Sequence record: NC_047885.1
DNA length: 64,000 bases
Strand: one strand, 5' to 3'
Source of the DNA: Escherichia phage chee24
Shown here: piece by piece, positions 16,248 to 62,900 of the stretch
How the letters are laid out: each line of letters begins with the position of its first letter
How positions within the stretch are numbered: the stretch's first letter is position 1
Notes under the pieces: model-generated
What the model saw: only the letters and a program-made list of their open reading frames with translations
What the model was told of the DNA's origin: nothing
Databases searched by the model: none
Program-made: the position numbers and the translations under genes

Positions 16248-16276
16248 ATTATACAGAATTTTAAGGCTTAAAGCAA
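16248..16276 (-). promoter_or_regulatory. sigma70-type early promoter (-35 TTGCTT, 17-nt spacer, -10 TATAAT)
   Basis: Reverse complement of ATTATA-N17-AAGCAA; A/T-rich upstream tract. Confidence 0.6.
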
Positions 16277-16755: not shown

Positions 16756-16784
16756 ATTATACAGAAACTTAAGCATTTTAGCAA
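16756..16784 (-). promoter_or_regulatory. sigma70-type early promoter (-35 TTGCTA, -10 TATAAT)
   Basis: ATTATA-N17-TAGCAA on plus strand. Confidence 0.6.
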
Positions 16785-18997: not shown

Positions 18998-19026
18998 ATT
19001 ATACCAAAATTTTTAGCAAAAAGCAA
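18998..19026 (-). promoter_or_regulatory. sigma70-type early promoter (-35 TTGCTT, -10 TATAAT)
   Basis: ATTATA-N17-AAGCAA on plus strand. Confidence 0.55.
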
Positions 19027-24327: not shown

Positions 24328-24481
24328 ATTTAATCCTCTTGCCTCAATCTATAAACATATTATACAAAAGTTTGGGCATCTAAGCAACTAAAATTTTATT
24401 ATAAAAATAGCCCAGTCGCAAAAGTGCAGGCTGGGCTTTGTCATTATTTGCTTTTGCTAGTAAGCTGACTTAGTGTCAATC

Positions 24482-24862
24482 TTATGTAATATTAGTTTTT
24501 CTAGCTTTGTGCAGTACCCCTGCATTTCTCCATAACTTAATATCGTCTACTGTTTCTTTATAAGGAGCTATGGTAAAACCTAGTGGGCCAGCACTAAATA
24601 ATCCTAAGAATCCTATTGCACGCATATAGAATACGCATTCTTCGCCTGTCATTTCTTCAACTGCTTTTCTTTGTTTTTCGTTTTCAAACTCGTGCTCCTT
24701 GTTGTCTATACGAAGGTGTTTAATGAACCATTCAGCAGAATATTCATCTAAATGTCTAAGTATAGCTACTGCATACCCAGCGCCGATTAAAAACCAAGTG
24801 GTAACAAGAATTAGTACTATAGTCATATAATCTCCAGTTAAGGTCAGCGACCAACTCACCAC
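24482..24862 (-). CDS. membrane protein (126 aa)
   Basis: ORF with hydrophobic helices. Confidence 0.5.
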   Translation of the reverse strand: MVSWSLTLTGDYMTIVLILVTTWFLIGAGYAVAILRHLDEYSAEWFIKHLRIDNKEHEFENEKQRKAVEEMTGEECVFYMRAIGFLGLFSAGPLGFTIAPYKETVDDIKLWRNAGVLHKARKTNIT

Positions 24863-24936
24863 TTACCGCACTAAGGGGCACGACTCCCTTATCCGTAACA
24901 GTTGCAGGTGACGCAACTCGGTCCTACGCGAGTTCT

Positions 24937-25221
24937 TTAATTATTCTGCATTTCTGCTTTAAATTTTTTCATATTACGAGTTTTTCGGTAATAGAAAAAT
25001 ACAGATGCTGGTCCTAGCAGAATATCCATAATAAATATCACAGACATACCACATCTTAATAGTGTTTTATCATCAAGAGGTGCTAGATCTAGTGGACGTG
25101 TTTTATGTATAACATATAAAAGTACATCTTTGTTCTTAGAGATATACAGATCATCAATCAAGCTGTAAATAGCAACTATAGACCCAATGACGAACCAAAG
25201 AGCAAATGGAGAGATAATCAT
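24937..25221 (-). CDS. membrane protein (94 aa)
   Basis: ORF with hydrophobic helices. Confidence 0.45.
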   Translation of the reverse strand: MIISPFALWFVIGSIVAIYSLIDDLYISKNKDVLLYVIHKTRPLDLAPLDDKTLLRCGMSVIFIMDILLGPASVFFYYRKTRNMKKFKAEMQNN

Positions 25222-25514
25222 TTCAGATCCTTTTCATTAACTAGAATATTTGTAAATAATGGAGTATTTCCTAAGCACATGGTAGGCCCAAAGGTTTGCA
25301 TAGCTATCCACAACTGCATAGTAATCATACCATCCTTAATCTCTGGATCTTTATACTCCTCAATACGTTTTTTGGCAAAGGCAACTACATCTGGATTATT
25401 TTTATTTTCCTGAATATAGTCATGCCAAAATTGTGTATTCTCACTACGCAGGAATGTTAAGACATCCTTAGTTGCTGGAATCTGCACTGTGCTATTGATG
25501 TTTAGCTTTTTCAC
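25218..25514 (-). CDS. hypothetical protein (98 aa)
   Basis: ORF. Confidence 0.45.
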   Translation of the reverse strand: MKKLNINSTVQIPATKDVLTFLRSENTQFWHDYIQENKNNPDVVAFAKKRIEEYKDPEIKDGMITMQLWIAMQTFGPTMCLGNTPLFTNILVNEKDLK

Positions 25515-25911
25515 GTTCTTCTCTCCGACGTTTGCATTCTTTCATCATATGAGCTGCTACAACTTCATGGTAGTAGTCATTAATGTTATCTTCTGGCAAG
25601 AAATGCTTAATAGTCTCTAGCTGACAAATAACTCGATGAAGATGGTTATTTGGTAGACACAATTTTATACCTGCAACAAATCCAGAGAAGCCTGGAACAC
25701 TGAACATGGGTTGGGCTTCTACTCTACCTTCAGAGTTGATATTAAGCTCAATTGAGATACCCATTTTCATGCTATAAAGCTGGCAATATTCTCCATTACC
25801 AGACCTTGACCAAACGGTGAAGTCCTCATCAATTTGATCTTGGATTTCTGTAATTGCAAATTTAATTCTAGGATCTAAATTATTCATCTTCACCTTCAAA
25901 GTCGCAATCAT
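25492..25911 (-). CDS. hypothetical protein (139 aa)
   Basis: ORF. Confidence 0.5.
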   Translation of the reverse strand: MIATLKVKMNNLDPRIKFAITEIQDQIDEDFTVWSRSGNGEYCQLYSMKMGISIELNINSEGRVEAQPMFSVPGFSGFVAGIKLCLPNNHLHRVICQLETIKHFLPEDNINDYYHEVVAAHMMKECKRRREEREKAKHQ

Positions 25912-26290
25912 AACGACAAGTAAAAGAACTAGAGCTATTAGTACGTTGAGTAGTTATCTCACCACGTTTGCTAACAGTAACAGCCGGAGTAGAGAAGTTT
26001 TTATTAGTATATATTTCTACTTTGCCGTTACGTTCCTTAACATCACGCACTTTACCATACTCAGTAATGATGCCGTTTTGTTGGACTTTAACATTGCCGT
26101 TTTTCATAAAAACTTTGGTAGATGCTAGAGAACCGAAACTAACTGCCGAAACCATCAGTGCAATAATAAACTTATTCATCATGATCTTCCTCATTACAGT
26201 CACGGCATACATCATAATCGTTGAAGGAATGTTCGTGAGCTTCACACCACCAAGAACAAGAATCACAGAGGAATATTTCGGTTTTCTCAA
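25880..26290 (-). CDS. secreted/periplasmic protein (136 aa)
   Basis: ORF with signal-peptide-like hydrophobic N-terminus. Confidence 0.45.
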   Translation of the reverse strand: MRKPKYSSVILVLGGVKLTNIPSTIMMYAVTVMRKIMMNKFIIALMVSAVSFGSLASTKVFMKNGNVKVQQNGIITEYGKVRDVKERNGKVEIYTNKNFSTPAVTVSKRGEITTQRTNSSSSFTCRYDCDFEGEDE

Positions 26291-26453
26291 GTGCTTGGCC
26301 TAAAAGATCATCAGCTTCCTCAGCAGTAATCTTCAATCCACACACATCTGCCACACGTTCTTTAATTAAGCGACCTGCTTCATGGTAAGACATACAGGTT
26401 CCAACAACACTATGCTCGACAACGTGAATAGCACAGTCTAGACGAGTTTTCAT
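26172..26453 (-). CDS. Cys-rich zinc-finger-like protein (93 aa)
   Basis: ORF with CxxC..CxxC arrangement; promoter at 26484-26512. Confidence 0.45.
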   Translation of the reverse strand: MKTRLDCAIHVVEHSVVGTCMSYHEAGRLIKERVADVCGLKITAEEADDLLGQALEKTEIFLCDSCSWWCEAHEHSFNDYDVCRDCNEEDHDE

Positions 26454-26483
26454 TTCAAACCTCTCTCATCAATTTATATAAAT

Positions 26484-26512
26484 ATTATAACAAGAAAAGA
26501 GAGGTTTAGCAA
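26484..26512 (-). promoter_or_regulatory. sigma70-type early promoter (-35 TTGCTA, -10 TATAAT)
   Basis: ATTATA-N17-TAGCAA; shares 27-nt core AATTTATATAAATATTATAACAAGAAA with two other sites. Confidence 0.6.
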
Positions 26513-26529
26513 ATGAATTATTTCAGAAA

Positions 26530-26877
26530 TTAGTCATAGCACCACCATAATCCACGCTTACGCATGTCATGATCGCGATTATAGTCGTAATTTTCTGGAT
26601 CTTTCATCACGCGGTGGAGTTCTTGACGATTTCCTTGACGAACCATTTTATTAGAATGCCACTTAACATTCTTACTAATGGAATTCCAGTTATAACCATC
26701 CTTTTTCTCATTACGAATGGTTGCTTCCTTCATTTCTTTTTTGATGTCGTCCCAGGATTTAGCATAAGTAACACGAATCCAGTAGCCATTTTCTTTGAGG
26801 AAAGAATATTCTTGAGAGAATTGTTCTTTAGACTTCCACCACTGATCACCAGATTGTTTACGATAAGTACGGCTCAT
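26530..26877 (-). CDS. hypothetical protein (115 aa)
   Basis: ORF. Confidence 0.5.
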   Translation of the reverse strand: MSRTYRKQSGDQWWKSKEQFSQEYSFLKENGYWIRVTYAKSWDDIKKEMKEATIRNEKKDGYNWNSISKNVKWHSNKMVRQGNRQELHRVMKDPENYDYNRDHDMRKRGLWWCYD

Positions 26878-26998
26878 ATTACCTCCATTAAGTCTTTTAA
26901 ATTAACCTAATGTGGATGAATTTTATTATACATAAATTATTTACCTGTATATAGAAAAACCCCAGACTACTTATTCAATAGCTGGGGTTTGTTGTTAA

Positions 26999-27313
26999 TT
27001 ACAGATCGGGGTGGTCATCTTCGAAACAGCCTGAGCTAATTCCTTCTCCGAATCCTACGAAGCCATCAAATTCATCATTTGAAATATCCGTAATCATTGC
27101 TTCCATTTTCCTAATCTCCGAGGTTTTCATCCCTGCTTTACTATTCTTAAAGTGTTTGCGAGGATTCCCGCACATCCAACAAGAACAGATACAAGGAGTA
27201 GTAGTGATAATACCTAACCGTTTAGGGCTTTCTTCATGTGGGAAGACTGTCCAATACTTCTTGCGGTTGTTCTTTACACGTTGCCGGTGATGACGTCTTA
27301 ATGCTCGATCCAC
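26999..27313 (-). CDS. Cys-rich protein (104 aa)
   Basis: ORF with CICSCWMC Cys cluster. Confidence 0.45.
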   Translation of the reverse strand: MDRALRRHHRQRVKNNRKKYWTVFPHEESPKRLGIITTTPCICSCWMCGNPRKHFKNSKAGMKTSEIRKMEAMITDISNDEFDGFVGFGEGISSGCFEDDHPDL

Positions 27314-27394
27314 ACATTTCTCCTAAAACTTGGGAGATAAATGGAGTTTGCTCGACTACCTTACGTAGTTCGTAGAAACCGTATCCAAGCCCCA

Positions 27395-27763
27395 TTACAT
27401 CGCCTGAGTAAATGTACGACTAATAACGTCGTTCTGCTGTTCACGCGTCAGTGAGTTAAAACGTACAGCATACCCTGAAACACGGATAGTTAATTGAGGG
27501 TATTTTTCAGGATGTTTCTGTGCATCCAAAAGCTGATCACGACTTAACACATTGACATTTAGGTGCTGACCTCCCTCGATTTGAGGAACTACTTCCACCT
27601 TGACTTCACGGAAGGATTCGGGGTCAAAATGTGGTGTGATACCTTCTAGATCCTCAACTAGAACTTTTTGTTTAAGTTCACCATCTTTAGAGTACAGTTG
27701 AATAATCTGATTATCATGAACAAGATTAATTACGCCAGACTTAAGATTTTGATATGCTTTCAT
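27395..27763 (-). CDS. grcA: autonomous glycyl radical cofactor (GrcA/YfiD-like)
   Basis: 122 aa; C-terminus [11 protein letters not shown]...[32 protein letters not shown] closely matches GrcA as recalled, including the RVSGYA glycyl-radical motif. Confidence 0.8.
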
Positions 27764-27805
27764 TAGCTCTCCCCGATGTTAGAAATTGGCTCAGCTCTTT
27801 ATTCT

Positions 27806-28000
27806 TTATAGTTTACCACGATATACAGAAACTGTCTTACCAGTTTGGTTCATAACGTATGCTACTTCATCTTCTTTTAAGAAGATTGCTTGATCTATTC
27901 CAGAAATAGCTATGCTTTTATTTCTGGGATTAAACCCTACGCTTTTACCAACATGAATCTGCTCACCACCATCAGTGGACATTATTTTAACTGTTAACAT
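27806..28000 (-). CDS. hypothetical protein (64 aa)
   Basis: ORF. Confidence 0.4.
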   Translation of the reverse strand: MLTVKIMSTDGGEQIHVGKSVGFNPRNKSIAISGIDQAIFLKEDEVAYVMNQTGKTVSVYRGKL

Positions 28001-28027
28001 AATTGCTCCTATATTTAGCTATCTCTA

Positions 28028-28104
28028 GCTCTTTTAATGGTAGTTAGTAGTGGATTTGAACCACTATAGTCGCTCCGTATGAAGGAGGTGCATAACCACT
28101 CTGC
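28028..28104 (-). tRNA. tRNA-Met (anticodon CAT; could be fMet, Met or Ile2-type)
   Basis: Hand-folded cloverleaf: 7-bp acceptor, T-loop GGTTCAAATCC, anticodon loop TTCATAC, encoded CCA. Confidence 0.7.
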
Positions 28105-28209
28105 CAACTAACTATTATGTTTTACTAGACTAAGTAAGTATTCTTTGTACTCTTTAGGCCAATTAGCTTTTTTAAACTTTCCTGGACGCATAGTCTTAAT
28201 TCCTAAATT

Positions 28210-28286
28210 TGGTACTCCGGGAGGGATTTAAACCCCCGATCTCTCGGTTATCAGCCGAGTGCTTTAGATCGCTAAGCTACCGAAGC
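28210..28286 (-). tRNA. tRNA-Ile (GAT)
   Basis: Hand-folded; anticodon loop CTGATAA; acceptor with G-U pairs; CCA encoded. Confidence 0.65.
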
Positions 28287-28287
28287 A

Positions 28288-28494
28288 TTAATATTTGGTT
28301 GCAGAACGTTTACCATTTCTAGGCGCACCGGGAAGTCGGGCACATTCCGCCATTTTTCTTTTTATTTTGCGGATGTTTTCAGGTGTTTGATCTTCTGGTT
28401 TTAGGCCAGATACATTACACCATAGTTTACCCTCCCATGCTGTAATGATCATTACGCCGTTACACATAATCTTTTCTGTAAAAGAAATTCTCAT
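28288..28494 (-). CDS. hypothetical protein (68 aa)
   Basis: ORF between tRNA genes. Confidence 0.4.
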   Translation of the reverse strand: MRISFTEKIMCNGVMIITAWEGKLWCNVSGLKPEDQTPENIRKIKRKMAECARLPGAPRNGKRSATKY

Positions 28495-28787
28495 TATCGT
28501 ATCTCGTTTAGGTAAGAAGTATAATGGAATTTAGCTTCTCCAGTCTTATCTATTTCTACCTCAGTTCGTGGTACTTGACGAACTACATCATGAATCATCT
28601 TATAGCGAATGCCTTTAGCTGGTTCATGATCTTTTGGAAATACCTGTTTAACCGTTACTACTTTATACTCTTCACGCGGTGTTAACACAACTACTTGATC
28701 ACCTTCTTTGATTTTCCAAGAAGATGGAAATTCATAGGTATATCTTTGGCCACCAGTTTGGAATACTACAGAAAGATAACGCTTCAT
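28494..28787 (-). CDS. hypothetical protein (97 aa)
   Basis: ORF preceded by promoter at 28818-28846. Confidence 0.5.
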   Translation of the reverse strand: MKRYLSVVFQTGGQRYTYEFPSSWKIKEGDQVVVLTPREEYKVVTVKQVFPKDHEPAKGIRYKMIHDVVRQVPRTEVEIDKTGEAKFHYTSYLNEIR

Positions 28788-28817
28788 TTGGTTTCCCTCC
28801 CATTAATTTATATAAAT

Positions 28818-28846
28818 ATTATAACAAGAAATAAGAGAGAAGGCAA
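28818..28846 (-). promoter_or_regulatory. sigma70-type early promoter (-35 TTGCCT, -10 TATAAT)
   Basis: ATTATA-N17-AGGCAA; same 27-nt conserved core. Confidence 0.55.
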
Positions 28847-28861
28847 ATGAATTTTTAAATT

Positions 28862-28936
28862 TGGTGCTCCCACCAGGAATCGAACCCGGTTCAGATGCTT
28901 ACAAGGCAACTGCATCGCCAGCAATGCTTTAGGAGC
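28862..28936 (-). tRNA. tRNA-Thr (TGT)
   Basis: Hand-folded; T-loop GGTTCGATTCC; anticodon loop CTTGTAA. Confidence 0.65.
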
Positions 28937-29103
28937 GATAATCCCATTATTTCAATGGGATTTCTTTTTCAAATACAGGGGATTTATCTGACATTACTGT
29001 CATTGCCAACTGCTGAAGAAACTCGAAAGTTAGCTTTAAACGTTCTTCGCCTAATTCAATCTCAACGTATTTCTTTTGTTTGTCAACCTTTAATTTTAGG
29101 TTA

Positions 29104-29325
29104 TCAGCCATCTTCGGATTCTCGTTGCTTGGCTACTGCTAGCCAGTCTGGTAAAAGAAACTTAGTACGAAACTCTTCATACGTTTCTTCTGGGTAAAAG
29201 CTAAAACCTCCTTTCTCATCATTCAAGATAACAGAGCCGTCAGTTTGTTCATAAGCTCGGTATGTTTCCCCAATAATGATAACTCGTTTATCGGTACTTT
29301 TATTACGAAACTCAAAAACGTGCAT
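29104..29325 (-). CDS. hypothetical protein (73 aa)
   Basis: ORF between tRNA genes. Confidence 0.4.
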   Translation of the reverse strand: MHVFEFRNKSTDKRVIIIGETYRAYEQTDGSVILNDEKGGFSFYPEETYEEFRTKFLLPDWLAVAKQRESEDG

Positions 29326-29339
29326 AGAGATTCCTTATT

Positions 29340-29414
29340 TGGTGCGGGATACGAGAGTCGAACTCGTGTCTACTGGTTGGAAGCCAGTTATTCTAACCAC
29401 TGAACTAATCACGC
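29340..29414 (-). tRNA. tRNA-Gly (TCC)
   Basis: Hand-folded; anticodon arm ACTGG-CTTCCAA-CCAGT; T-loop TTCGACT. Confidence 0.65.
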
Positions 29415-29421
29415 ATTAATT

Positions 29422-29497
29422 TGGCTGGAGAAGGAGGAATCGAACCTACCATTAACGGAGTCAAAGGCCGTTGTGCTAACCGTTACACTACTCTCCA
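29422..29497 (-). tRNA. tRNA-Gln (TTG)
   Basis: Hand-folded; anticodon loop CTTTGAC; T-loop TTCGATT. Confidence 0.6.
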
Positions 29498-29503
29498 ATA
29501 ATT

Positions 29504-29579
29504 TGGCTGGGATGCCACGGATCGAACGTGGAACCTTCGGAGTCAGAGGCCGACGATCTGCCAATTGATCTACATCCCA
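29504..29579 (-). tRNA. tRNA-Gln (CTG)
   Basis: Hand-folded; anticodon loop CTCTGAC; perfect T-stem CCACG/CGTGG. Confidence 0.65.
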
Positions 29580-29592
29580 ATAATTCTTTACT

Positions 29593-29787
29593 CTACGGAA
29601 GTGGAGTAGTTGGCTCAGGTTCTTCAAGGCGCTTACCTTCATGATCTACTCGAATGACTCCGCATCCTTCGCAAACCACAACTGCACCATAACCTTCTTT
29701 GACTTCGGCTTCTGTAATCAGACCAGATAAGTCACCAGTATCTCTGCCCCACATATCAAGGGAGCATTGCTTGCAGAAATCAGCCAT
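29593..29787 (-). CDS. Cys-rich small protein (64 aa)
   Basis: ORF with CxxC..CxxC; between tRNA genes. Confidence 0.4.
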   Translation of the reverse strand: MADFCKQCSLDMWGRDTGDLSGLITEAEVKEGYGAVVVCEGCGVIRVDHEGKRLEEPEPTTPLP

Positions 29788-29811
29788 ATTTTATTTCCTA
29801 TTTAAGTTAAT

Positions 29812-29889
29812 TTGGGGTGGCTAGTGGAATTCGAATCCACATAGGCCTGATTCACAATCAGGATCATTAACCAATTATGATATAGCCAC
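29812..29889 (-). tRNA. tRNA-His (GTG)
   Basis: Hand-folded; anticodon arm CCTGA-TTGTGAA-TCAGG; extra 5' G typical of tRNA-His. Confidence 0.7.
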
Positions 29890-30117
29890 AATTGAAAACT
29901 CGCAGGGTTAGCGAAACCATCCTCAATTAGCATGTTCTAGAATACTAATCAAGTTATCTCCTATTGCACGCAGCTCAAGACGAGTACGAATTTTCAATTG
30001 TGGCGGCTCTCAGAAACTCTTCTATTCTAGCCCCAGAAGCTTACCCCCGAACGCATGTCGGGAAAGTCTTTCCAAGCGCATCAAATAGCACCGTTACACT
30101 TTGAGCCATTGATATAT

Positions 30118-30203
30118 CAAGGAACAGAAGGAGTTGAACCTTCACGAGATAGACCATTTATCTCAACCGCTTTTAAGGTATATTTCTAGGAGTGGATGTT
30201 CCT
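30118..30203 (-). other. tRNA-like element (perfect acceptor and T-arm, non-canonical D/anticodon region)
   Basis: Acceptor AGGAACA/TGTTCCT, T-arm GAAGG-TTCAACT-CCTTC, internal hairpin GAGATA..TATCTC; no standard anticodon loop found. Confidence 0.35.
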
Positions 30204-30257
30204 AGTAAACCTATTCGGCAGTCCCGTCTACCAATTCCGGCATATTCCAAGAATTTT

Positions 30258-30431
30258 TTATAAACCAGCAGAAGCCTCATTTAAAGCATCAACAATAGCT
30301 TCACGCTGGGTCATTCCGTACCCGGTGGAATCTAGGTGCGGCAAATAAGCCATCCACCCCTTATCTGTTTCATGAAGACATGCTTTAAATTTTTTACCAT
30401 CCTTCATTGTTACAGTAACTGTTTTGCTCAT
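30258..30431 (-). CDS. hypothetical small protein (57 aa)
   Basis: Hand-translated ORF with AAGGAAG RBS. Confidence 0.35.
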   Translation of the reverse strand: MSKTVTVTMKDGKKFKACLHETDKGWMAYLPHLDSTGYGMTQREAIVDALNEASAGL

Positions 30432-30451
30432 AAGACTTCCTTATAGTTAAT

Positions 30452-30541
30452 TGGCAGAAGATAATGGAGTCGAACCATCACCGTATCACTACAGCGGGCT
30501 GGTTTTCAAGACCAGTTACGTACCACTACGTCCTATCTTCT
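30452..30541 (-). tRNA. tRNA-Ser (TGA), class II
   Basis: 90 nt; anticodon arm CTGGT-CTTGAAA-ACCAG; long variable arm. Confidence 0.65.
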
Positions 30542-30554
30542 AGTATTTATTATA

Positions 30555-30902
30555 CTAATAGTCACTCGTACTAGTGAAATCTTCTACTTTTCCACAAATT
30601 TTACAAGTCCTACGATGATAGTAGGTAATTTTTACTTTAGACCAGCCATCGTGATCATTACCTAGGTTTTCTGTTACTCCCCAAGTATGGGAACACTCAT
30701 TTTCAATTTGCTTAGTAAGAGCGTTATAGCGAGTATAAAACTCCTCCTGGGCAATAGCAAACTCTTTCTGTAGTTTATCACGAGCAATAATAGCACGTTC
30801 CAGATATGTTAAATCGGGCATTCCAGCTTTTTCAGCAGCATCTATAACCTTATCTTCATCTAAAGATGCTAAAAACTCTAGAGCTTTATCTTTTGCTAAC
30901 AT
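30555..30902 (-). CDS. hypothetical protein (115 aa)
   Basis: ORF. Confidence 0.5.
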   Translation of the reverse strand: MLAKDKALEFLASLDEDKVIDAAEKAGMPDLTYLERAIIARDKLQKEFAIAQEEFYTRYNALTKQIENECSHTWGVTENLGNDHDGWSKVKITYYHRRTCKICGKVEDFTSTSDY

Positions 30903-30924
30903 TATTATTATTACCTCAAGTGTT

Positions 30925-31015
30925 TGGCGGAAGAGGAGAGATTTGAACTCTCAAGCCGTTTTACCAGTCAGCCACTTTCCAAGCGGTTTTCGTCGCCAAT
31001 TCGATTTGCTCTTCC
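30925..31015 (-). tRNA. tRNA-Ser (GGA), class II
   Basis: 91 nt; perfect T-arm GAGAG-TTCAAAT-CTCTC; anticodon loop TTGGAAA; long variable arm; resembles E. coli tRNA-Ser architecture. Confidence 0.55.
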
Positions 31016-31127
31016 AATAATAAGATGATGCCTCTATCACGCCAGACAGTTACGCCTCGCTGGGATTCGAACCCATTAAAACAGCTCAACCGAGATAGTA
31101 GGTTTAATTTACTCTGACCATCAAATT

Positions 31128-31204
31128 TGGTGCGTGACAAGGGATTCGAACCCTCAAAACCCGACTTCTAAGGACGGTATGTATGCCAATTCCATCAATC
31201 ACGC
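31128..31204 (-). tRNA. tRNA with anticodon TAG (Leu-type anticodon, class I shape)
   Basis: 77 nt; 7-bp acceptor, T-loop TTCGAAT, anticodon loop CTTAGAA, discriminator A; short variable arm. Confidence 0.5.
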
Positions 31205-31209
31205 GTATT

Positions 31210-31288
31210 TGGTGGAGGATAACGAATTCGAATCGTTCTGATGTCCTCGGTGCAAGCGAGGTGTCCACTCCCAGCAGACCCATCCCCC
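31210..31288 (-). tRNA. tRNA-Ala (TGC)
   Basis: Hand-folded; anticodon arm CCTCG-CTTGCAC-CGAGG; G3-U70 pair in acceptor stem. Confidence 0.65.
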
Positions 31289-31546
31289 AAAATCTTTAGT
31301 TTACTAAGGCTATTAGCTCGGCGTAACTACAGCACCTTCGCTTCGAGCGGAAGGAACTGCGTCATCTCGCAAACCCGATACACTATTCAGTTGCCATGAA
31401 TCTAGTGGACTAATCTAGAACTTCTCCCAAATCGTAGGGATCGTGCTTTTTGGCAGCCAGTCCTAGGTCGAGCTAATACCTTAGTGAACTATGATGAGGA
31501 TTTCTCCCCATCAATTTATATAAATATTATAACAAGAAATTAAGCA

Positions 31547-31906
31547 TTAAGCAAGTACATTTTTGCAGATTTCTTGTAATTCCTTTACATCACGAACGTA
31601 AAGGTAGTCTGAACTTCCAGAGTGCATACTTTGCATAAACACACCCTCATCTGGCGCAGTATCCTTCAGAGTAATTCCTAACCAAAAAGCGGCAAAACGA
31701 GGTGTTACCTCACCTTGACTTGCCTTGAATACATCGGCTTCTGTGATCTCCTGACCAGTAGAAAGTCCCATATACGGTACGTTCAGATCAATATCTTTGT
31801 AGAATTCAGCTAGGTCTTGTTCGAAGTCCCAACCTTTAGAGATAGCGAACTCTATTGTTACATGACCGAAATAGCCTTGAACCTTGCTTGATAATTGCAT
31901 TTGCAA
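31547..31906 (-). CDS. hypothetical protein (119 aa)
   Basis: ORF. Confidence 0.5.
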   Translation of the reverse strand: MQMQLSSKVQGYFGHVTIEFAISKGWDFEQDLAEFYKDIDLNVPYMGLSTGQEITEADVFKASQGEVTPRFAAFWLGITLKDTAPDEGVFMQSMHSGSSDYLYVRDVKELQEICKNVLA

Positions 31907-31925
31907 TTCCTTATTTTGAGTTAAT

Positions 31926-31999
31926 TGGTACTCGGTGATAGAATCGAACTATCGCAACCGCCGTGTAAAGACGGGGTTCTCCCATTAAACTAACCGAGC
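31926..31999 (-). tRNA. tRNA-Val (TAC)
   Basis: Hand-folded; perfect T-arm GATAG-TTCGATT-CTATC; anticodon loop TTTACAC. Confidence 0.6.
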
Positions 32000-32132
32000 A
32001 AAAGATTTGCTACTAAAAATGCTTCGAACAGAAATTCACAAAATCCCGCTAAAAACATACCTATTGTAAAATCGGCAGAAAATACATAGGAATCTTTTAT
32101 TTTCTGCTTCATTAAGTAAAACCAGATAGTCA

Positions 32133-32450
32133 TTAAAATCTCTCCATTCTAAAGCCAATGAAGTAAGGTGCATTACACGGAACATGCTTAAGATCTTTAA
32201 GAGTAATTTTACGTCCTAAGCGTCGTTCCATACAAGTGAAACATAGAACAATATCTTTGGGCTGCTCTTTTCTTATCTGATCCCAGACCCAATCTTCAAC
32301 CATACACATTTCATGGTATTGTTCACAGTCTCGACAATAATGACACTGATGTTCTGGTACTTTTTGATTTTTAATACACAGTTCAGTAAAGCGTTTTCCG
32401 GCTCTGCCAGACATTTCTGATATTGTTTCTAGAACTTTGTTAATATTCAT
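32133..32450 (-). CDS. Cys/His-rich protein (105 aa)
   Basis: ORF with several Cys/His clusters. Confidence 0.45.
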   Translation of the reverse strand: MNINKVLETISEMSGRAGKRFTELCIKNQKVPEHQCHYCRDCEQYHEMCMVEDWVWDQIRKEQPKDIVLCFTCMERRLGRKITLKDLKHVPCNAPYFIGFRMERF

Positions 32451-32467
32451 AACAAATTCCTTTAAAT

Positions 32468-32546
32468 TGGTAGATCGCCTGGGACTCGAACCCAGAACCT
32501 TCCGATTAAAAGTCGGATGCTACTAAACCTATTGAGCTAGCGACCT
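32468..32546 (-). tRNA. tRNA-Lys (TTT)
   Basis: Hand-folded; anticodon arm TCCGA-CTTTTAA-TCGGA; T-arm CTGGG-TTCGAGT-CCCAG. Confidence 0.7.
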
Positions 32547-32739
32547 ATTAGTAGCCATTATATACTTCTTTAATAGAATAGACTTTTAGGTAAGAATGAT
32601 TAATCCCAAACTCCGCCATTACTTCTTTTTCATTTTTTCCATAATGTGCAAGTAAGAATCTTGAGGTATTATTACCTAAACGTTTGTCACTTACTACTAA
32701 TCGAAATACTTTCATTTCGAAATCCTCTATTAAAAGGGA

Positions 32740-32813
32740 AGCGGGTGCAGGAATCGAACCTACCTCTTTCTAGCTTATGAGACTAGCGATCTCTACCAGA
32801 GATCTAACCCGCA
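32740..32813 (-). tRNA. tRNA-Met/Ile2 (CAT)
   Basis: Hand-folded; anticodon arm CTAGT-CTCATAA-GCTAG; CCA not encoded; acceptor register uncertain. Confidence 0.55.
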
Positions 32814-32819
32814 ATTGTT

Positions 32820-32895
32820 TGGTCAGTGCGGCAGGACTCGAACCTGCGACCCGAAGCATCCAAGGCTCCCACGCTACCAACTGCGCTACGCACTG
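32820..32895 (-). tRNA. tRNA-Pro (TGG)
   Basis: Hand-folded; perfect acceptor; D-arm GCGC-AGTTGGTA-GCGT; anticodon loop CTTGGAT. Confidence 0.7.
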
Positions 32896-33347
32896 TTAAT
32901 TTTGTTAACTCACTTTATAAGATATATTATACAGAGAATTAAGTAAAATAGCAAATGAATTTTTAATAAATTTACTTATTATGTAGGCCGCCTGGAGGCT
33001 ACCAACCCCACGGCTGACAAAGAAGTTTGCGAGACTTCTCTTAAAAGCCAGAATAGACCCGCCGGTCTATCGGAACCTACATAATAAGTAAACTTTATAG
33101 TGTCATTCTAGGCAGGACTCGAACCTGCTATCACTTGTGCGGACTTACGAGAACCATTCTTTCACTCGAATCGAACGAGCTTCTGCCCTCGCCAAGCTGG
33201 TTTCCCCCATCAACCACGCTAGAATGTTAGATTGTTTTCAGTGCAAGAGTCCGAGTCTTGGACACGACCGCTTCGCAAGTACATAGGCAGCTTATCATGA
33301 GTCAGCACTTCCGAATTGCTAGCTCCGTGTTCTGCACTGAAATTTTA

Positions 33348-33695: not shown

Positions 33696-33720
33696 AATAT
33701 ATTCTCATACTGAATTAATT

Positions 33721-33797
33721 TGGCGCGACCGATGGGATTTGAACCCACATTCTCTCCCGTGACAGGGGAGTACCATTACCAAGCCAGCCCCGGTCGC
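33721..33797 (-). tRNA. tRNA-Asp (GTC)
   Basis: Hand-folded; anticodon arm CTCCC-CTGTCAC-GGGAG; T-loop TTCAAAT. Confidence 0.7.
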
Positions 33798-33806
33798 ATA
33801 ATTTAT

Positions 33807-34667: not shown

Positions 34668-34688
34668 TACTTCTTTCCTTTAGTAATT

Positions 34689-35181: not shown

Positions 35182-35213
35182 TTTATGTAATTATTATATA
35201 GAACTTTTGGAAA

Positions 35214-35501
35214 CTAAGCAACTACATTTTTTAGGAATTTGATCCCTTTCTTTTTCTTCTTATATTTCCACGTTAATGGATTCTGTCGATTATGAACGCT
35301 TGAGATCTTTGTCTCGTCAAAGTTCTTCAATATCATGTAATCACAGGATAATTGTTCTAGTGGAATGTGATCACCGTCAAAAGCGTATACATAAGGCTGT
35401 TGACTAGCACGATAATGATAGACTTTGTTAATTCTACGTTTCAGCGACTTATCCGCGCAGTAAATAAAGAAGTTTTCAGGATGCATCAGCATCTCCTTCA
35501 A
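35214..35501 (-). CDS. hypothetical protein (95 aa)
   Basis: ORF. Confidence 0.45.
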   Translation of the reverse strand: MKEMLMHPENFFIYCADKSLKRRINKVYHYRASQQPYVYAFDGDHIPLEQLSCDYMILKNFDETKISSVHNRQNPLTWKYKKKKKGIKFLKNVVA

Positions 35502-35503
35502 TT

Positions 35504-35859: not shown

Positions 35860-35987
35860 ATATTTAGAAGCATTCAAATACTTGTTTAAACACTTTTAAA
35901 TATGTTTCCGAATTAGATAACTATTATACCAAGTTTTAAGGCACTGAGCAAGTCAAATTTTAAAGAACTTGCTCAGTGCTGTATTAG

Positions 35988-36263: not shown

Positions 36264-36353
36264 TAATTAACTCCTTCATCAATTTATATAACTATTATAC
36301 CAGAAATTTAAAGTAAAAGGCAAGTACATTTTTAAAAATTCTGTTTGGAGGAG

Positions 36354-37490: not shown

Positions 37491-37511
37491 GAATTTATAA
37501 GATATATTATA

Positions 37512-38030
37512 TTAGAAATTTAGCTTCATAGCAAGAAAATTTTTCAAGTTTTCGGTAGACATCTCATCCACATCTACAGGAGAAACAAATCCATTTAATT
37601 GTCTAGCAAATTTTTCACCAGCAGGATCATTATCCCCAACAGCTACCAATTTAAAAGGTAGTAATTTCAATTGCTTTAACAACGCTTTTCCTGGAGAAGA
37701 ACCCAACATTGCCAGGGCTGGATAACCAGCGTTATGTAATGCTACGGCCTTAAATACAGATTCCGCAACCAATACTACTTTTTCATCCCCATTGAGAGTT
37801 TCCAGCCCCCATACACACTGTGTAGTAGAATAAGTAAAATACTTAGCTTCAAAAGGAGATTTACCATGACCTTTTGGAGCAGAAGGATTATAAGTCTGAT
37901 AGCCTCTCAACATCCCAGAGAAGTCATACAATGGGACTGTTAGCCATCCTTCCGGACTTAACCAGCAATGATATTTATCTGTATCAAACCCTCTAGATAA
38001 GAGATGTTCTGTTAGTTCATCAACAGTCAT
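37512..38030 (-). CDS. Toprim-like domain protein
   Basis: 172 aa; VVLVAES ... VAVGDNDPAGEKFARQL resembles Toprim acidic motifs; promoter at 38059-38087. Confidence 0.5.
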   Translation of the reverse strand: MTVDELTEHLLSRGFDTDKYHCWLSPEGWLTVPLYDFSGMLRGYQTYNPSAPKGHGKSPFEAKYFTYSTTQCVWGLETLNGDEKVVLVAESVFKAVALHNAGYPALAMLGSSPGKALLKQLKLLPFKLVAVGDNDPAGEKFARQLNGFVSPVDVDEMSTENLKNFLAMKLNF

Positions 38031-38058: not shown

Positions 38059-38087
38059 ATTATACAGAGGATTTAGCATTCAAGCAA
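38059..38087 (-). promoter_or_regulatory. sigma70-type early promoter (-35 TTGCTT, -10 TATAAT)
   Basis: ATTATA-N17-AAGCAA; drives 37512-38030. Confidence 0.6.
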
Positions 38088-41893: not shown

Positions 41894-41922
41894 ATTATAC
41901 AGAATTTATAAGCATTTAGCAA
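41894..41922 (-). promoter_or_regulatory. sigma70-type early promoter (-35 TTGCTA, -10 TATAAT) facing an ORF-free region
   Basis: ATTATA-N17-TAGCAA; downstream leftward region 41100-41880 has no ORF of 60 aa or more. Confidence 0.6.
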
Positions 41923-42374: not shown

Positions 42375-42612
42375 TATTTCATTCCTAACGCTTGGTTAAA
42401 AGATTGTTCTGTCATAACTGCTGAGACTTTGGCGAAATCAAACTTTTTAGGGTTCGTAGTGATCTCAGCAACGTTGGAAGTTTTAACAGTTTTCGTAGTA
42501 CGAATACCGCGAGTATTAACACCAATAATTACAACTGATTTCATATTTCGCTTCCTCTCATTAATTTATGAAAGTATTATACAGAAGTTTAAGTATTTAA
42601 GCAAATAAATTT

Positions 42613-43385: not shown

Positions 43386-43827
43386 AATAGCCTCGTTTCA
43401 TCAATTTAAAAATATATTATACAGAAAACTTAATAAATTAGCAAATACATTTTTAAATTGTGAAACTAGTAAACCGATAAACAGCCTAGAGGCGCCACAG
43501 GCCATATCTTACGAGCCATGTACCTTTGATCTAGGGTTTGAATCATCAACGAATACTTTGCATCTTTTAGCTTTAGAAGTTTAGAAGTTTGAGTTCTTTA
43601 AACTTTTCAGCTTTCATACTTAAATGTTGATCTTTGAAGTTGTGTCGGTAATATCAACGACGCTTTGTTTTTACGTGTCAGATTAAATGTCTGATGTAAT
43701 AAACATAATCTCCAATAGATTATACTTTATAGTATGGTCAGCGGTCTTATTTAACCTCGTATTTCAACCGCTGCTGCGAGGTAAGATGCTTGGGCTTTCG
43801 TCTACCGATTTACTAGCTTTTAAATTA

Positions 43828-44742: not shown

Positions 44743-44771
44743 ATTATACAGAATTTTGGAGCCGGAAGCAA
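44743..44771 (-). promoter_or_regulatory. sigma70-type early promoter (-35 TTGCTT, -10 TATAAT)
   Basis: ATTATA-N17-AAGCAA. Confidence 0.6.
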
Positions 44772-46576: not shown

Positions 46577-46659
46577 TATTTATTTTCCTTTTTGTTTATC
46601 AATTTATGAAGTATATTATACGAGAATTTGAAGCGTTTAGCAACTGAATTTTTTAAAAA

Positions 46660-46938: not shown

Positions 46939-47014
46939 AAAGCCCTCCTCACTTTCAATACGAATATTATACTAAATTAGAGGGCTTTAAGCAAGAAGAT
47001 TTTTAATTTATTTA

Positions 47015-47772: not shown

Positions 47773-47865
47773 TGTATACCTCCAATTTATAAAATATATT
47801 ATATTTAAATTTCACTAAATAAGCAAATGAAATTTAAATATAATAGCCCCGAAGGGCTATTTAAG

Positions 47866-50380: not shown

Positions 50381-50487
50381 TGATTTTCCTCTTTCTCACT
50401 ATTTCAGGAATATTATAGCAAATCAGGTAGCGATTAGCAAGTAAAATTTCAAAGAAAAAGGAGACCCGAAGATCTCCTTGTTTTTTA

Positions 50488-53923: not shown

Positions 53924-54226
53924 TCCTATAGTGTACTTCGCTAACAGAGGATCAACAAAAAGATCTTGTTTATCAACTTACAAATATATTATACCAGTAT
54001 ATGCAGTAAAAAGCAACTACAATTTTAAATAAGCCTATGATATTGCATTTAAATAAAAAATTTGCTTGCTTTTAACGGGAAATGTATGGTATTAGATAAT
54101 CATTTTATACCGCGTACATAGGCGCGTGATTATACTATTTTAAGTACAAAATAGCAAATAAATTTTTTAACAATTTGCTAACCTTTTAGCACAGATCAAA
54201 ATACAATATCTAAGAGAAAAATTATA

Positions 54227-56201: not shown

Positions 56202-56230
56202 TTGCTTTCAGCTAAAAATATATGTATAAT
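56202..56230 (+). promoter_or_regulatory. sigma70 promoter (TTGCTT-N17-TATAAT)
   Basis: Upstream of 56258 ORF; preceded by A/T tract. Confidence 0.6.
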
Positions 56231-62871: not shown

Positions 62872-62900
62872 TTGCTTTCAGGAAAATTTTTCTGTATAAT
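62872..62900 (+). promoter_or_regulatory. sigma70 promoter (TTGCTT-N17-TATAAT)
   Basis: Near-identical to promoter at 56202-56230 including flanking AAAATTTATTTGCTTTCAG. Confidence 0.6.

What the first reader, a model, noticed from the sequence alone, without database searches (positions are those of the whole stretch)
26471..31540. Reiterated, nearly identical early promoters that could drive recombination
More than fifteen intergenic sites share the layout A/T tract, TTGCT(A/T), 17 nt, TATAAT. Three of them (26471-26497, 28805-28831, 31509-31535) share an identical 27-nt core AATTTATATAAATATTATAACAAGAAA. Such direct repeats are substrates for deletions or duplications across the tRNA region and suggest modular promoter-gene cassettes.
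Basis: partly seen in the sequence, partly recalled or inferred. Interest (0 to 1): 0.4.

Follow-up and report, generated by a model that had tools for sequence, protein, structure and literature searches.

The report
Known T5 phage early promoters, repeated
These repeats are the well-known strong early promoters of a T5-like phage, so they are ordinary for this family, although relatives show that two of them have occasionally served as crossover points for deletions in the tRNA region.

Summary
The window is bases 1-64000 of T5-like phage pork29 (MF431732.1, 100% identity). TTGCTW-N17-TATAAT occurs 23 times against 0.07 expected. The 27-mer occurs exactly three times, and the third copy is at 31513-31539, not 31509-31535. 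The motifs read on the minus strand, the coding strand here. The 27-mer is the end of the spacer, the -10 hexamer, the discriminator and the first transcribed bases. The three sites are orthologues of promoters annotated in the T5 RefSeq record: an unnamed promoter upstream of T5.053, P11 and P13b. The layout is the published consensus for T5-like promoters, and the site at 62872-62900 contains PN25 verbatim. The promoter identification is therefore already known. The recombination idea is partly supported. Two natural hybrid-promoter junctions exist. One is a 4.5-kb deletion between the copy 1 and copy 3 orthologues, found in one record of about 444. The other is a P11 x P13b fusion shared by phages Shivani, SHSML-45 and vB_SLGBLB0002. 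No duplication junctions were found. Most indel boundaries in this region lie at tRNA gene ends, and the classical T5st0 deletion used a 10-bp repeat inside ORFs. In read-through RNA, copies 1 and 2 would also fold into hairpins that cover the downstream ribosome-binding site.

The parts
26471..26497 (-). 27-mer copy 1. On the minus strand it reads TTTCTTGT|TATAAT|ATTTATATAAATT, which is the end of the spacer, the -10 hexamer, the discriminator and the first transcribed bases.
   Evidence: Exact match; reading on the coding strand.
26484..26512 (-). Core promoter copy 1: -35 TTGCTA (26512-26507), 17-nt spacer, -10 TATAAT (26489-26484). The inferred start is about 26477. It is the orthologue of the unnamed T5 promoter upstream of T5.053 (NC_005859 26722-26796).
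26513..26535 (-). A/T-rich upstream tract of copy 1 (GAAATAATTCAT), a UP-element-like -43 block.
   Evidence: Literature on the N25 UP element and the AKFV33 consensus AAAAATT.
26172..26453 (-). 93-aa ORF driven by copy 1 (T5.053 homologue). The SD GAGAGAGG and the ATG follow a leader of about 24 nt.
   Evidence: Homologues at 83-97% identity.
28805..28831 (-). 27-mer copy 2.
28818..28846 (-). Core promoter copy 2: -35 TTGCCT, 17-nt spacer, -10 TATAAT. The inferred start is about 28811. It is the orthologue of T5 'promoter P11' (NC_005859 28597-28671).
28494..28787 (-). 97-aa ORF driven by copy 2 (T5.058 homologue), followed by the ORF at 28288-28494, tRNA-Ile and tRNA-Met.
31513..31539 (-). 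27-mer copy 3.
31526..31554 (-). Core promoter copy 3: -35 TTGCTT, 17-nt spacer, -10 TATAAT. The inferred start is about 31519. It is the orthologue of T5 'promoter P13b' (NC_005859 32001-32075).
31290..31519 (-). Non-coding transcript region downstream of copy 3. It is homologous to T5 RNA2H ('stable RNA with unknown functions') and is followed by tRNA-Ala and tRNA-Leu.
   Evidence: 96.5% identical to the T5 RNA2H region. No SD-ORF. No Rfam family.
26449..26517 (-). Hairpin predicted for read-through RNA across copy 1. The 5' arm is the UP/-35 region plus the CU-rich spacer, the 3' arm is the SD plus AUG of the downstream ORF, and the loop is the 27-mer.
   Evidence: -23.9 kcal/mol, z = -6.5. 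Kept in divergent lineages with changes on both arms.
28783..28851 (-). Equivalent hairpin predicted across copy 2.
   Evidence: -23.3 kcal/mol, z = -5.3.
16248..16276 (-). Family member (exact layout).
16756..16784 (-). Family member (exact layout).
18998..19026 (-). Family member (exact layout).
24359..24387 (-). Family member; orthologue of the T5 promoter at NC_005859 24443-24517.
32926..32954 (-). Family member; orthologue of T5 P13a. tRNA-Pro starts about 24 nt downstream of the inferred start.
35193..35221 (-). Family member; orthologue of T5 P14b.
35923..35951 (-). Family member (-35 TTGCTC); orthologue of T5 P14a, upstream of the tRNA-Tyr cluster.
36294..36323 (-). Family member with an 18-nt spacer; orthologue of T5 P15c.
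37506..37534 (-). Family member; orthologue of T5 P15b, 9 nt upstream of tRNA-Ser.
38059..38087 (-). Family member; orthologue of T5 P15a. P15A gave an early-class primer-extension product in vivo (Klimuk et al. 2020).
41894..41922 (-). Family member; orthologue of T5 P16-17.
42576..42604 (-). Family member; orthologue of T5 P-D/E33.
43416..43444 (-). Family member; orthologue of the T5 promoter at NC_005859 43067-43141.
44743..44771 (-). Family member (exact layout).
46615..46643 (-). Family member (exact layout).
46966..46994 (-). Family member. Its spacer AAAGCCCTCT is complementary to its own SD GGAGGGCTTT, giving a third promoter-spanning hairpin.
47798..47826 (-). Family member (exact layout).
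50412..50440 (-). Family member (exact layout).
53988..54016 (-). Family member (exact layout).
54129..54157 (-). Family member (exact layout).
56202..56230 (+). Family member on the plus strand.
62872..62900 (+). Family member whose 29-nt core (-35 through -10) is identical to the classical T5 PN25 promoter used in expression vectors; the published PN25 primer sequence continues to match its flanks from -45 to about +25.
   Evidence: sequence compared with the PN25 primer sequence in PMC4447248.
63898..63926 (+). Family member on the plus strand.

Best explanation
The repeats are sigma-70-dependent early promoters of a T5-like phage (Tequintavirus; the window is pork29 bases 1-64000). They are read by unmodified host RNA polymerase. 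Each consists of an A/T-rich UP-like tract at about -43, a -35 TTGCTW, a 17-nt spacer, a consensus -10 TATAAT, an AT-rich discriminator, and an AT-rich initial transcribed sequence (ATAAATTGATGAGAGG) that runs directly into a Shine-Dalgarno sequence. The three sites that share the 27-mer head three transcription units of the tRNA region. Copy 1 drives the T5.053-like small-protein operon. Copy 2 (P11) drives a T5.058-like gene followed by tRNA-Ile and tRNA-Met. Copy 3 (P13b) drives the stable RNA2H followed by tRNA-Ala and tRNA-Leu. I infer that their near-identity reflects common descent plus purifying selection on a strong promoter core. It also makes them dispersed direct repeats, and together with tRNA gene ends they are the main such repeats in the early region. 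Occasional recombination between them has therefore deleted the DNA in between and left functional-looking hybrid promoters. Shown here: the sequence layout and its enrichment, orthology to annotated T5 promoters, and the two hybrid junctions. Inferred: the transcription start positions and the early timing in this particular phage.
For: The window is 100% identical to MF431732.1. There are 23 exact layout matches against 0.07 expected. All are co-oriented with the genes, and most have a stereotyped 19-34 nt leader to an SD plus ORF, or lie just upstream of tRNA or stable-RNA genes. T5 RefSeq annotates promoters at the orthologous positions of all three copies and of at least ten other family members (P11, P13b, P13a, P14a/b, P15a/b/c, P16-17, P-D/E33). 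The published consensus for the T5-like phage AKFV33 is TTGCTw, 17-18 bp, TATAATA, with AAAAATT at -43 and TAAATT at +1, across 32 promoters. The site at 62872-62900 contains PN25 verbatim. N25 architecture, including its UP element, is described. Primer extension in T5-infected cells detected 11 of 19 promoters defined in vitro, including early P15A. The promoter family is the largest dispersed direct-repeat family in the window, with 17 copies of 65 nt. For recombination, OR896837.1 lacks 4531 bp relative to LR027384.1. Its junction is a hybrid with the P13b-type -35 and spacer joined to the copy 1 RBS and gene, and the two alignments overlap by 34 nt. In Shivani, SHSML-45 and vB_SLGBLB0002, the P13b upstream context is fused at AAAAAyTCATTTGCTT to the P11 spacer, -10 and gene, and the intervening tRNA block is absent.
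Against: No transcription-start data exist for pork29, so start sites and timing rest on orthology and literature. A generic sigma-70 scan is not enriched in this AT-rich region (28 found, 27 expected); only the T5-specific layout is. The -35 of copy 2 is TTGCCT, one mismatch from TTGCTW. Klimuk et al. call a promoter named 'P11' pre-early, and I could not verify that it is the P11 annotated at 28.6 kb. Recombination at promoters is rare. The copy 1 x copy 3 junction occurs in 1 of about 444 records. No precise deletion or duplication junction built from pork29 flanks was found. Promoter zones are not significantly enriched among indel boundaries (p = 0.056). The hybrid junctions are inferred to be deletions from comparison alone, and no parent-offspring pair was observed.
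Confidence: 0.92

Rival explanations
1. The exact identity of the three cores is maintained by ongoing gene conversion or recent duplication among the promoters (concerted evolution), rather than by independent purifying selection on each.
For: The exact 27-mer is patchy at individual loci. T5 has it at copy 1 and P13b but not P11. BF23 has it at P11 and P13b but not copy 1. mar004NP2 has it only at P13b. The two hybrid junctions show that the copies can recombine.
Against: At copy 1, the form ATTTATATAAATT occurs both in the closest relatives (T5, L040) and in the most divergent lineages (L060-L063, 83-85% protein identity). ATATTTATAAATT and ATGTTTATAAATT occur in an intermediate group. That pattern fits an ancestral state with one derived clade and needs no conversion. 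The flanks outside the 27-31 nt are locus-specific and stable in every genome. No conversion tract longer than the shared core was seen.
Confidence: 0.15
2. For copies 1 and 2, and for the site at 46966-46994, an additional RNA-level element is under selection. In transcripts that read through from upstream promoters, the -35 and spacer sequence pairs with the SD and AUG of the downstream gene and hides them. Transcripts that start at the promoter itself lack the 5' arm and can be translated. An alternative role for the same hairpin is as an RNase III processing site. This does not exclude the promoter function.
For: Predicted hairpins of -23.9 and -23.3 kcal/mol with z = -6.5 and -5.3. Copy 3, which has no ORF downstream, has none (z = -1.5). 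Only 3 of about 30 promoters have spacers complementary to their own SD. Divergent lineages changed both arms and kept the hairpin. Native arm pairs give -18.4 to -23.9 kcal/mol, cross-lineage chimeras -14.9 to -18.6, and 2 pairs show changes on both sides. One genome extended the stem to a 21-nt perfect inverted repeat.
Against: Covariation is thin: 2 compensated pairs among 13 closely related sequences. Part of the pairing comes for free from family consensus motifs (TTCATTTG against CAAATGAA). The energy gap between native and chimeric arms is modest. There are no expression data. Read-through into these promoters is assumed, not shown.
Confidence: 0.3
3. The promoters are PeSL-like mobile regulatory cassettes whose main evolutionary role is to act as linkers for modular shuffling of the tRNA and accessory-gene region.
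For: Two hybrid-promoter junctions exist. The DNA directly upstream of P13b differs between genomes, with at least four contexts: a 119-aa gene, tRNA-Val, tRNA-Lys or a tRNA-like RNA. Homing-endonuclease genes are inserted directly upstream of copy 1 in some genomes.
Against: Promoter zones hold 10 of 83 boundary clusters against 6.8% of the sequence (p = 0.056), while tRNA edges hold 33 of 83 (p = 4e-14). Among clean deletions with at least 14 nt of junction homology, only one is promoter-promoter and several are tRNA-tRNA. Most junctions have 7 nt of homology or less, or are endonuclease-gene insertions. No terminator stem-loop adjoins the three promoters. No duplications or swaps at the 27-mer were found in about 440 genomes.
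Confidence: 0.12
4. The similarity is chance in AT-rich DNA, or the sites are targets for another factor (for example a homing-endonuclease site or transposon end) and not promoters.
For: The region is AT-rich and generic promoter-like matches are at background level.
Against: None of 100 shuffles gives even one 27-mer match, and there are 23 layout matches against 0.07 expected. Position and orientation relative to genes are fixed. The sites are orthologous to experimentally named T5 promoters and one is identical to PN25.
Confidence: 0.01

Closest known systems
Bacteriophage T5 early promoters (Gentz & Bujard 1985 class; annotated in NC_005859 as P11, P13b, P13a, P14a/b, P15a/b/c and others; PN25 is the best-known member)
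   Same: The same -35 TTGCTW, 17-nt spacer, TATAAT, A/T block at -43 and AT-rich transcribed start. The three copies sit at the orthologous positions of the T5 promoter upstream of T5.053, P11 and P13b. In T5 the first and third carry the identical 27-mer. The site at 62872-62900 contains PN25 verbatim.
   Different: Nothing essential differs. In T5 itself P11 departs from the 27-mer at three positions (TTTATTGC...AAGTT), whereas pork29 has all three identical.
Promoter consensus reported for T5-like phage AKFV33 (Niu et al. 2012, PMC3326045)
   Same: The published consensus is TTGCTw (-35), TATAATA (-10), a 17-18 bp spacer, AAAAATT upstream of -43 and TAAATT at +1, across 32 promoters.
   Different: That paper does not discuss the promoters as recombination substrates.
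PeSL cassettes (promoter-early stem-loop) of T4-type phages (Arbiol et al. 2010, PMC2839356; Comeau et al. 2014, PMC4122927)
   Same: They are reiterated strong sigma-70-like early promoters in a plastic, accessory-gene-rich region, and recombination between copies produces deletions and module exchange. The hybrid promoters found here are the T5-family counterpart.
   Different: PeSLs are composite promoter-plus-terminator stem-loops, and no terminator adjoins the three copies. Recombination between PeSLs explains much of the RB49/phi1 divergence, whereas here promoter junctions are a small minority and tRNA ends dominate. Mini-circles were not testable.
T5st0 heat-stable deletion mutant (AY692264)
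   Same: It is an 8.5-kb deletion in the same tRNA and accessory region, annotated as arising at a short direct repeat ('recombination site for st0 deletion mutant'). It shows that repeat-mediated deletion in this region is tolerated and already documented.
   Different: The repeat is 10 bp inside two ORFs, not a promoter.
T4 genes whose ribosome-binding site is hidden by a hairpin in read-through early transcripts but free in transcripts started from a promoter inside the hairpin (gene e lysozyme, soc, I-TevI). This comparison rests on my own knowledge and was not checked here.
   Same: The logic is the same as that proposed for the hairpins across copies 1 and 2: the 5' arm lies upstream of the start site and the 3' arm is the SD and AUG.
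   Different: In T4 the internal promoter is a late or middle promoter, which gives temporal control. Here both the upstream and the internal promoters would be early sigma-70 promoters, and nothing has been tested experimentally.

Membership tests
T5-type early sigma-70 promoter | -35 hexamer TTGCTW, 17-18 bp spacer, -10 TATAAT | tested here: met
   Copies 1 and 3 match exactly. Copy 2 has TTGCCT, one mismatch. There are 23 exact sites against 0.07 expected.
T5-type early sigma-70 promoter | A/T-rich block around -43 (AAAAATT; UP-like) | tested here: met
   Copy 1 has GAAATAATTCAT, copy 2 TTTAAAAATTCAT and copy 3 GCAAAAATGTAC directly upstream of the -35. The consensus is and the N25 UP element.
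T5-type early sigma-70 promoter | AT-rich discriminator and initial transcribed sequence (ATATT-type discriminator; TAAATT at +1) | tested here: met
   All three read TATAAT-ATTTAT-ATAAATT. Most family members read TATAAT-ATATTy-ATAAATT. Klimuk et al. report that all known early promoters contain ATATT in the discriminator, and the three copies carry the close variant ATTTAT.
T5-type early sigma-70 promoter | Located upstream of, and co-oriented with, early genes, tRNA genes or stable-RNA genes | tested here: met
   The leader to SD plus ATG is 24 nt for copies 1 and 2. Copy 3 lies upstream of the RNA2H homologue and tRNA-Ala.
T5-type early sigma-70 promoter | Orthology to a promoter mapped or named in T5 | tested here: met
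   Flanks are 95-96% identical to T5. The T5 record annotates promoters at 26722-26796, 28597-28671 (P11) and 32001-32075 (P13b).
T5-type early sigma-70 promoter | Transcription start and early kinetics demonstrated in infected cells | not testable with these tools
   No RNA data exist for pork29. Literature gives primer extension for T5 P15A (early) and for a promoter named P11, but I could not confirm that this P11 is the annotated one.
PeSL-type mobile regulatory cassette (T4-type phages) | Strong sigma-70-like early promoter reiterated in a hyperplastic region | tested here: met
   The region is highly variable among relatives.
PeSL-type mobile regulatory cassette (T4-type phages) | Adjacent stem-loop that acts as a transcription terminator | tested here: not met
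   No terminator-like hairpin lies next to the three promoters on the minus strand. The hairpins found span the promoter and lack a U-tract.
PeSL-type mobile regulatory cassette (T4-type phages) | Recombination between copies accounts for much of the indel and replacement differences between relatives | tested here: not met
   Two promoter-promoter junctions were found, but they are a small minority (1 of about 80 clean-deletion junction classes). Promoter zones are not significantly enriched (p = 0.056), whereas tRNA edges are (p = 4e-14).
PeSL-type mobile regulatory cassette (T4-type phages) | Excised mini-circles formed by exchange between nearby copies | not testable with these tools
   This needs PCR or sequencing of phage DNA preparations.

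The most novel reading that the evidence does not exclude
T5-family early promoters have two roles beyond transcription. First, together with tRNA gene ends, they are the homology patches through which Tequintavirus genomes shed blocks of the tRNA and anti-defence island, leaving working hybrid promoters (as in the Shivani lineage and OR896837.1). Second, a subset (copy 1, copy 2 and the site at 46966-46994) is built into a hairpin that hides the downstream ribosome-binding site in read-through mRNA, so that translation of the gene is tied to initiation at its own promoter.
Probability: 0.25. Interest if true: 0.4.

Novelty: already known. Interest (0 to 1): 0.18.

Why it matters
The main result is a negative for novelty. 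The flagged repeats are the classical T5 promoters, some of the strongest E. coli promoters known and the source of PN25 in expression vectors. This finding can be closed as explained. Two things of modest value came out of the check. First, there is direct comparative evidence that these promoters have served as deletion crossover points in nature. This bears on how T5-like phages gain and lose tRNA and anti-defence genes, and on the genetic stability of T5-like phages used for therapy or biocontrol. Second, three of the promoters sit inside hairpins that would mask the downstream ribosome-binding site in read-through RNA. That would be a cheap way to couple translation to promoter choice and could easily be tested.

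Tried and rejected
1. I built chimeric 'deletion junction' queries (250 nt left flank, the 27-mer, 250 nt right flank) for copies 1-2, 2-3 and 1-3 from pork29 flanks. Against about 450 T5-like records, none showed a precise junction. The single 2-3 candidate (KKP_3831) turned out to be a 2.6-kb deletion with 10-nt homology (GTGCTCCCAC, tRNA 3'-end sequence) at its junction, not at the 27-mer.

2. The three 'duplication junction' chimeras gave no hit.

3. A generic sigma-70 and terminator scan was uninformative in this AT-rich DNA.

4. An Rfam search of 24-44 kb found only tRNAs and no family for the stable-RNA stretches.

5. Literature searches for T5 deletion endpoints at promoters found nothing in the held library. 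Kammerer et al. 1986 is not held. The Klimuk et al. supplement does not contain the promoter alignment as text.

6. I considered gene conversion as the cause of the identity and judged it unnecessary, because the variants can be explained by descent.

7. RNAalifold on the copy 1 orthologues gave only 2 compensated pairs, and MAFFT could not handle the register shifts. I supplemented it with native-versus-chimeric arm folding. I treat the hairpin as suggestive only.

Full report
**Identity of the window.** The 6-kb stretch around the finding is 100% identical to T5-like phages pork27, pork29, saus47N, saus111K and poul124. For pork29 (MF431732.1, Tequintavirus chee24) the coordinates coincide, so the window is bases 1-64000 of that genome. 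Between about 16 and 54 kb all genes and all 26 tRNA genes lie on the minus strand.

**Checking the observation.**
- The 27-mer AATTTATATAAATATTATAACAAGAAA occurs exactly three times, at 26471-26497, 28805-28831 and 31513-39. No further site appears even when three mismatches are allowed, and 100 shuffles gave none.
31509 is where a longer 31-nt identity between copies 1 and 3 starts.
- The layout TTGCTW-N17-TATAAT has 23 exact matches against 0.07 expected, and 28 with one mismatch against 2.4 expected.
- The motif reads on the minus strand here. On that strand the 27-mer is TTTCTTGT|TATAAT|ATTTATATAAATT, which is the last 8 nt of the spacer, the -10 hexamer, the discriminator and the first transcribed bases.
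- In a slightly relaxed set of 26 sites, about 20 are followed after a 19-34 nt leader by a Shine-Dalgarno sequence and an ORF. Another 4-5 lie just upstream of tRNA or stable-RNA genes.
- A repeat search finds this family as the largest dispersed direct repeat in the window (17 copies of 65 nt at 60% identity or more). tRNA 3' portions come second.

**What it is.** The T5 RefSeq record annotates promoters at the orthologous positions of all three copies.
- An unnamed promoter at 26722-26796 lies upstream of T5.053.
- 'Promoter P11' is at 28597-28671.
- 'Promoter P13b' is at 32001-32075, and drives the stable RNA2H followed by tRNA-Ala and tRNA-Leu.

The flanks are 95-96% identical. In T5 itself the 27-mer is present at the first and third of these sites. 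At least ten further window sites match named T5 promoters almost base for base: P13a, P14a/b, P15a/b/c, P16-17 and P-D/E33. The BF23 record annotates 'hypothetical early promoter' at the copy 1 and copy 2 orthologues.

The layout is also published. For the T5-like phage AKFV33 the consensus was given as TTGCTw, a 17-18 bp spacer, TATAATA, AAAAATT upstream of -43 and TAAATT at +1, across 32 promoters. The core (-35 through -10) of the site at 62872-62900 is identical to PN25, and its flanks continue to match the published PN25 sequence. The UP element, near-consensus hexamers and escape-limiting transcribed sequence of N25 are a standard model system. Primer extension in T5-infected cells detected 11 of 19 promoters defined in vitro, including early P15A. 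The authors noted that all known early promoters carry ATATT in the discriminator. The promoter interpretation is therefore correct and already known. Start sites and timing in pork29 itself are inferred, not measured.

**Why the three are so alike.**
- Orthologues gathered by protein similarity, and so not biased towards the 27-mer, show that each locus keeps its own -35, spacer and flanks across lineages whose downstream proteins are 83-99% identical. The -10 hexamer, discriminator and transcribed start barely change.
- At copy 1 the form ATTTATATAAATT occurs in both the closest and the most distant lineages. ATATTT and ATGTTT occur in an intermediate group, which fits descent with one derived clade.
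- I therefore favour common origin plus purifying selection. Gene conversion is possible but not required.

**Testing the recombination idea.**
- Chimeric junction queries built from pork29 flanks found no precise deletion and no duplication among about 440-450 T5-like records.
- The first search did, however, expose a natural variant. OR896837.1 (98.7 kb) and LR027384.1 (107.6 kb) are both assigned to Tequintavirus mar004NP2 and are 98.6-99.8% identical. They differ by a 4531-bp deletion whose junction lies inside the promoter repeat.
- The junction is a hybrid. It has the P13b-type -35 and spacer (TTGCTTGATGCTTAATTTCTTGT), then TATAAT and ATTTATATAAATTGATG, then the copy 1 RBS and gene (GGAGAGGTTTGAAATG...). 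The two alignments overlap by 34 nt. The junction is unique to that record among 444.
- A second hybrid appeared among the copy 2 orthologues. In SHSML-45, Shivani and vB_SLGBLB0002, the upstream context of P13b (a tRNA-like RNA ending ...GGAACCCGCTACCA, then ATTTCAAGAAAAACTCATTTGCTT) is fused to the P11 spacer, -10 and gene. The crossover lies in the UP-proximal/-35 segment.
- Shivani has only 8 tRNA genes in this region. It lacks the whole block from tRNA-Thr to tRNA-Pro. Because the junction is shared by three independently isolated phages, it is not an assembly artefact.

**How important this is.**
- I ran an all-against-all survey of clean deletions among 37 related loci. With 14 nt or more of junction homology it found one promoter-promoter event and several tRNA-tRNA events.
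- The tRNA-tRNA events include a 26-31 nt shared 3' half of tRNA-Asp and tRNA-Lys(CTT), seen in many genomes, plus a 25-nt and a 17-nt tRNA-derived repeat.
- Most other junctions had 7 nt of microhomology or less, or were homing-endonuclease gene insertions.
- Mapped on the window (23-38.2 kb), 83 boundary clusters were found. Ten fall in promoter zones covering 6.8% of the sequence (p = 0.056). Thirty-three fall within 15 nt of a tRNA gene end, covering 9% (p = 4e-14).
- These counts are rough. HSP ends are imprecise, the loci are related, and part of them were collected through the 27-mer itself.
- The classical T5st0 deletion is annotated as recombination at a 10-bp repeat inside two ORFs.
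- Promoters are thus real but minor recombination substrates. The 'modules' of the tRNA region are bounded mostly by tRNA ends.
- The closest described analogue, the PeSL cassettes of T4-type phages, differs in having an attached terminator stem-loop, which is absent here. PeSLs also dominate the indel landscape of their phages.

**A by-product.**
- On the transcribed strand the DNA of copies 1 and 2 would fold, in RNA reading through from upstream, into hairpins of about 70 nt: -23.9 and -23.3 kcal/mol, z = -6.5 and -5.3.
- The 5' arm is the UUCAUUUG of the UP/-35 region plus a CU-rich spacer. The 3' arm is the Shine-Dalgarno sequence plus AUG of the downstream gene. The loop is the 27-mer.
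- Copy 3, which has no ORF downstream, lacks such a hairpin.
- Only three of about 30 family members have spacers complementary to their own SD, the third being at 46966-46994.
- Divergent lineages changed both arms and kept the fold: AAACCTCTCT/AGAGAGGTTT, then AAAACCCTCTC/GAGAGGGCTTT, then GAGCCTCTTTAT/ATAGAGAGGGCT. Native arm pairs fold at -18.4 to -23.9 kcal/mol and cross-lineage chimeras at -14.9 to -18.6. RNAalifold counted two pairs changed on both sides.
- One metagenomic genome extended the stem to a 21-nt perfect inverted repeat (-38 kcal/mol), next to an endonuclease-gene insertion.
- A transcript started at the promoter itself would lack the 5' arm. I infer that translation of these genes may be coupled to initiation at their own promoter, or that the hairpin is an RNase III site. 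This is suggestive only.

**Verdict.** The promoter interpretation is correct but long established. The recombination suggestion is partly supported by two natural deletion junctions, with no duplications seen and tRNA ends far more important as boundaries. Novelty: already known. Interest: low.

Noticed in passing
window 26449-26517, 28783-28851 and about 46936-46992 (minus strand): Three promoters have spacers complementary to the Shine-Dalgarno sequence and AUG of their own downstream gene. Read-through RNA would form a hairpin of about -24 kcal/mol that hides the ribosome-binding site, and transcripts started at the promoter would lack the 5' arm. Divergent lineages keep the hairpin with changes on both arms.
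   Followed up: partly
L053/L023 (IMGVR_UViG_3300045988_054024), orthologue of window 26449-26517: In this genome the copy 1 spacer has been rewritten into a 21-nt perfect inverted repeat (ACCTCTCTCATCAATTTATAA) centred on the -10, giving a predicted -38 kcal/mol. It looks like a quasi-palindrome 'correction' by template switching. It sits next to a 516-bp endonuclease-gene insertion directly upstream of the promoter.
   Followed up: partly
window 23000-38200: Indel boundaries between T5-like genomes concentrate at tRNA gene ends: 33 of 83 boundary clusters lie within 15 nt of a tRNA end (p = 4e-14). Several clean deletions have 17-31 nt of tRNA-derived homology at the junction. One example is the shared 3' half of tRNA-Asp and tRNA-Lys(CTT) at window 33718-33745.
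   Followed up: partly
window 29890-30257 and 31290-31519 (minus strand): These are non-coding stretches homologous to the T5 stable RNAs RNAIII, RNAI, RNA1 and RNA2H, which the T5 RefSeq record annotates as 'stable RNA with unknown functions'. No Rfam family matches them. RNA2H begins with a 9-bp hairpin about 8 nt downstream of the inferred P13b start.
   Followed up: no
window 26172-26453 (minus strand): The GenBank CDS P29_0047 is annotated as 26172..26393. The ORF with a strong SD (GAGAGAGG) starts at 26453, as in T5.053 and BF23_00055 (282 nt), so the pork29 start appears to be annotated 60 nt too far downstream.
   Followed up: partly
window 30925-31015 and 31040-31127 (minus strand): GenBank annotates a second tRNA-Ser at 30925-31015. 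Neither ARAGORN nor the Rfam search called it. The next 90 nt contain a T-arm-like motif (TGGGATTCGAACCC, 31061-31080) with no tRNA called, possibly a tRNA remnant or tRNA-like RNA.
   Followed up: no
window 41597-41671 (minus strand): ARAGORN calls a 'tRNA-Ser' with the odd anticodon ACT. Rfam scores it weakly (34.5 bits), and a feature at the corresponding position of the related mar004NP2 record (orthology not tested) is labelled 'tRNA-OTHER'. It lies in the region T5 annotates as the long stable RNA 'RNAX'.
   Followed up: no
window 26523-26534; also 23631-23638 and 25525-25887: Homing (HNH) endonuclease genes are present or absent at these points among relatives. One of them is inserted exactly between the upstream edge of promoter copy 1 and the stop codon of the preceding gene (KKP_3831 and an IMG/VR contig).
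   Followed up: partly
window 10261-10317 and 12132-12153: There are three copies of a 22-nt repeat (TGTGCAAATCCGAC...) between about 10.2 and 12.2 kb. The first two (10261-10317) are at the position where the BF23 paper describes a repeat-rich non-coding region (8.6-10.3 kb in BF23) between the first-step-transfer DNA and the rest of the genome.
   Followed up: no
L091 (AY692264.1 33674-33683): The T5st0 record annotates a 10-bp 'recombination site for st0 deletion mutant' inside two disrupted ORFs. This documents that short-repeat-mediated deletion in this region is already known for T5.
   Followed up: yes
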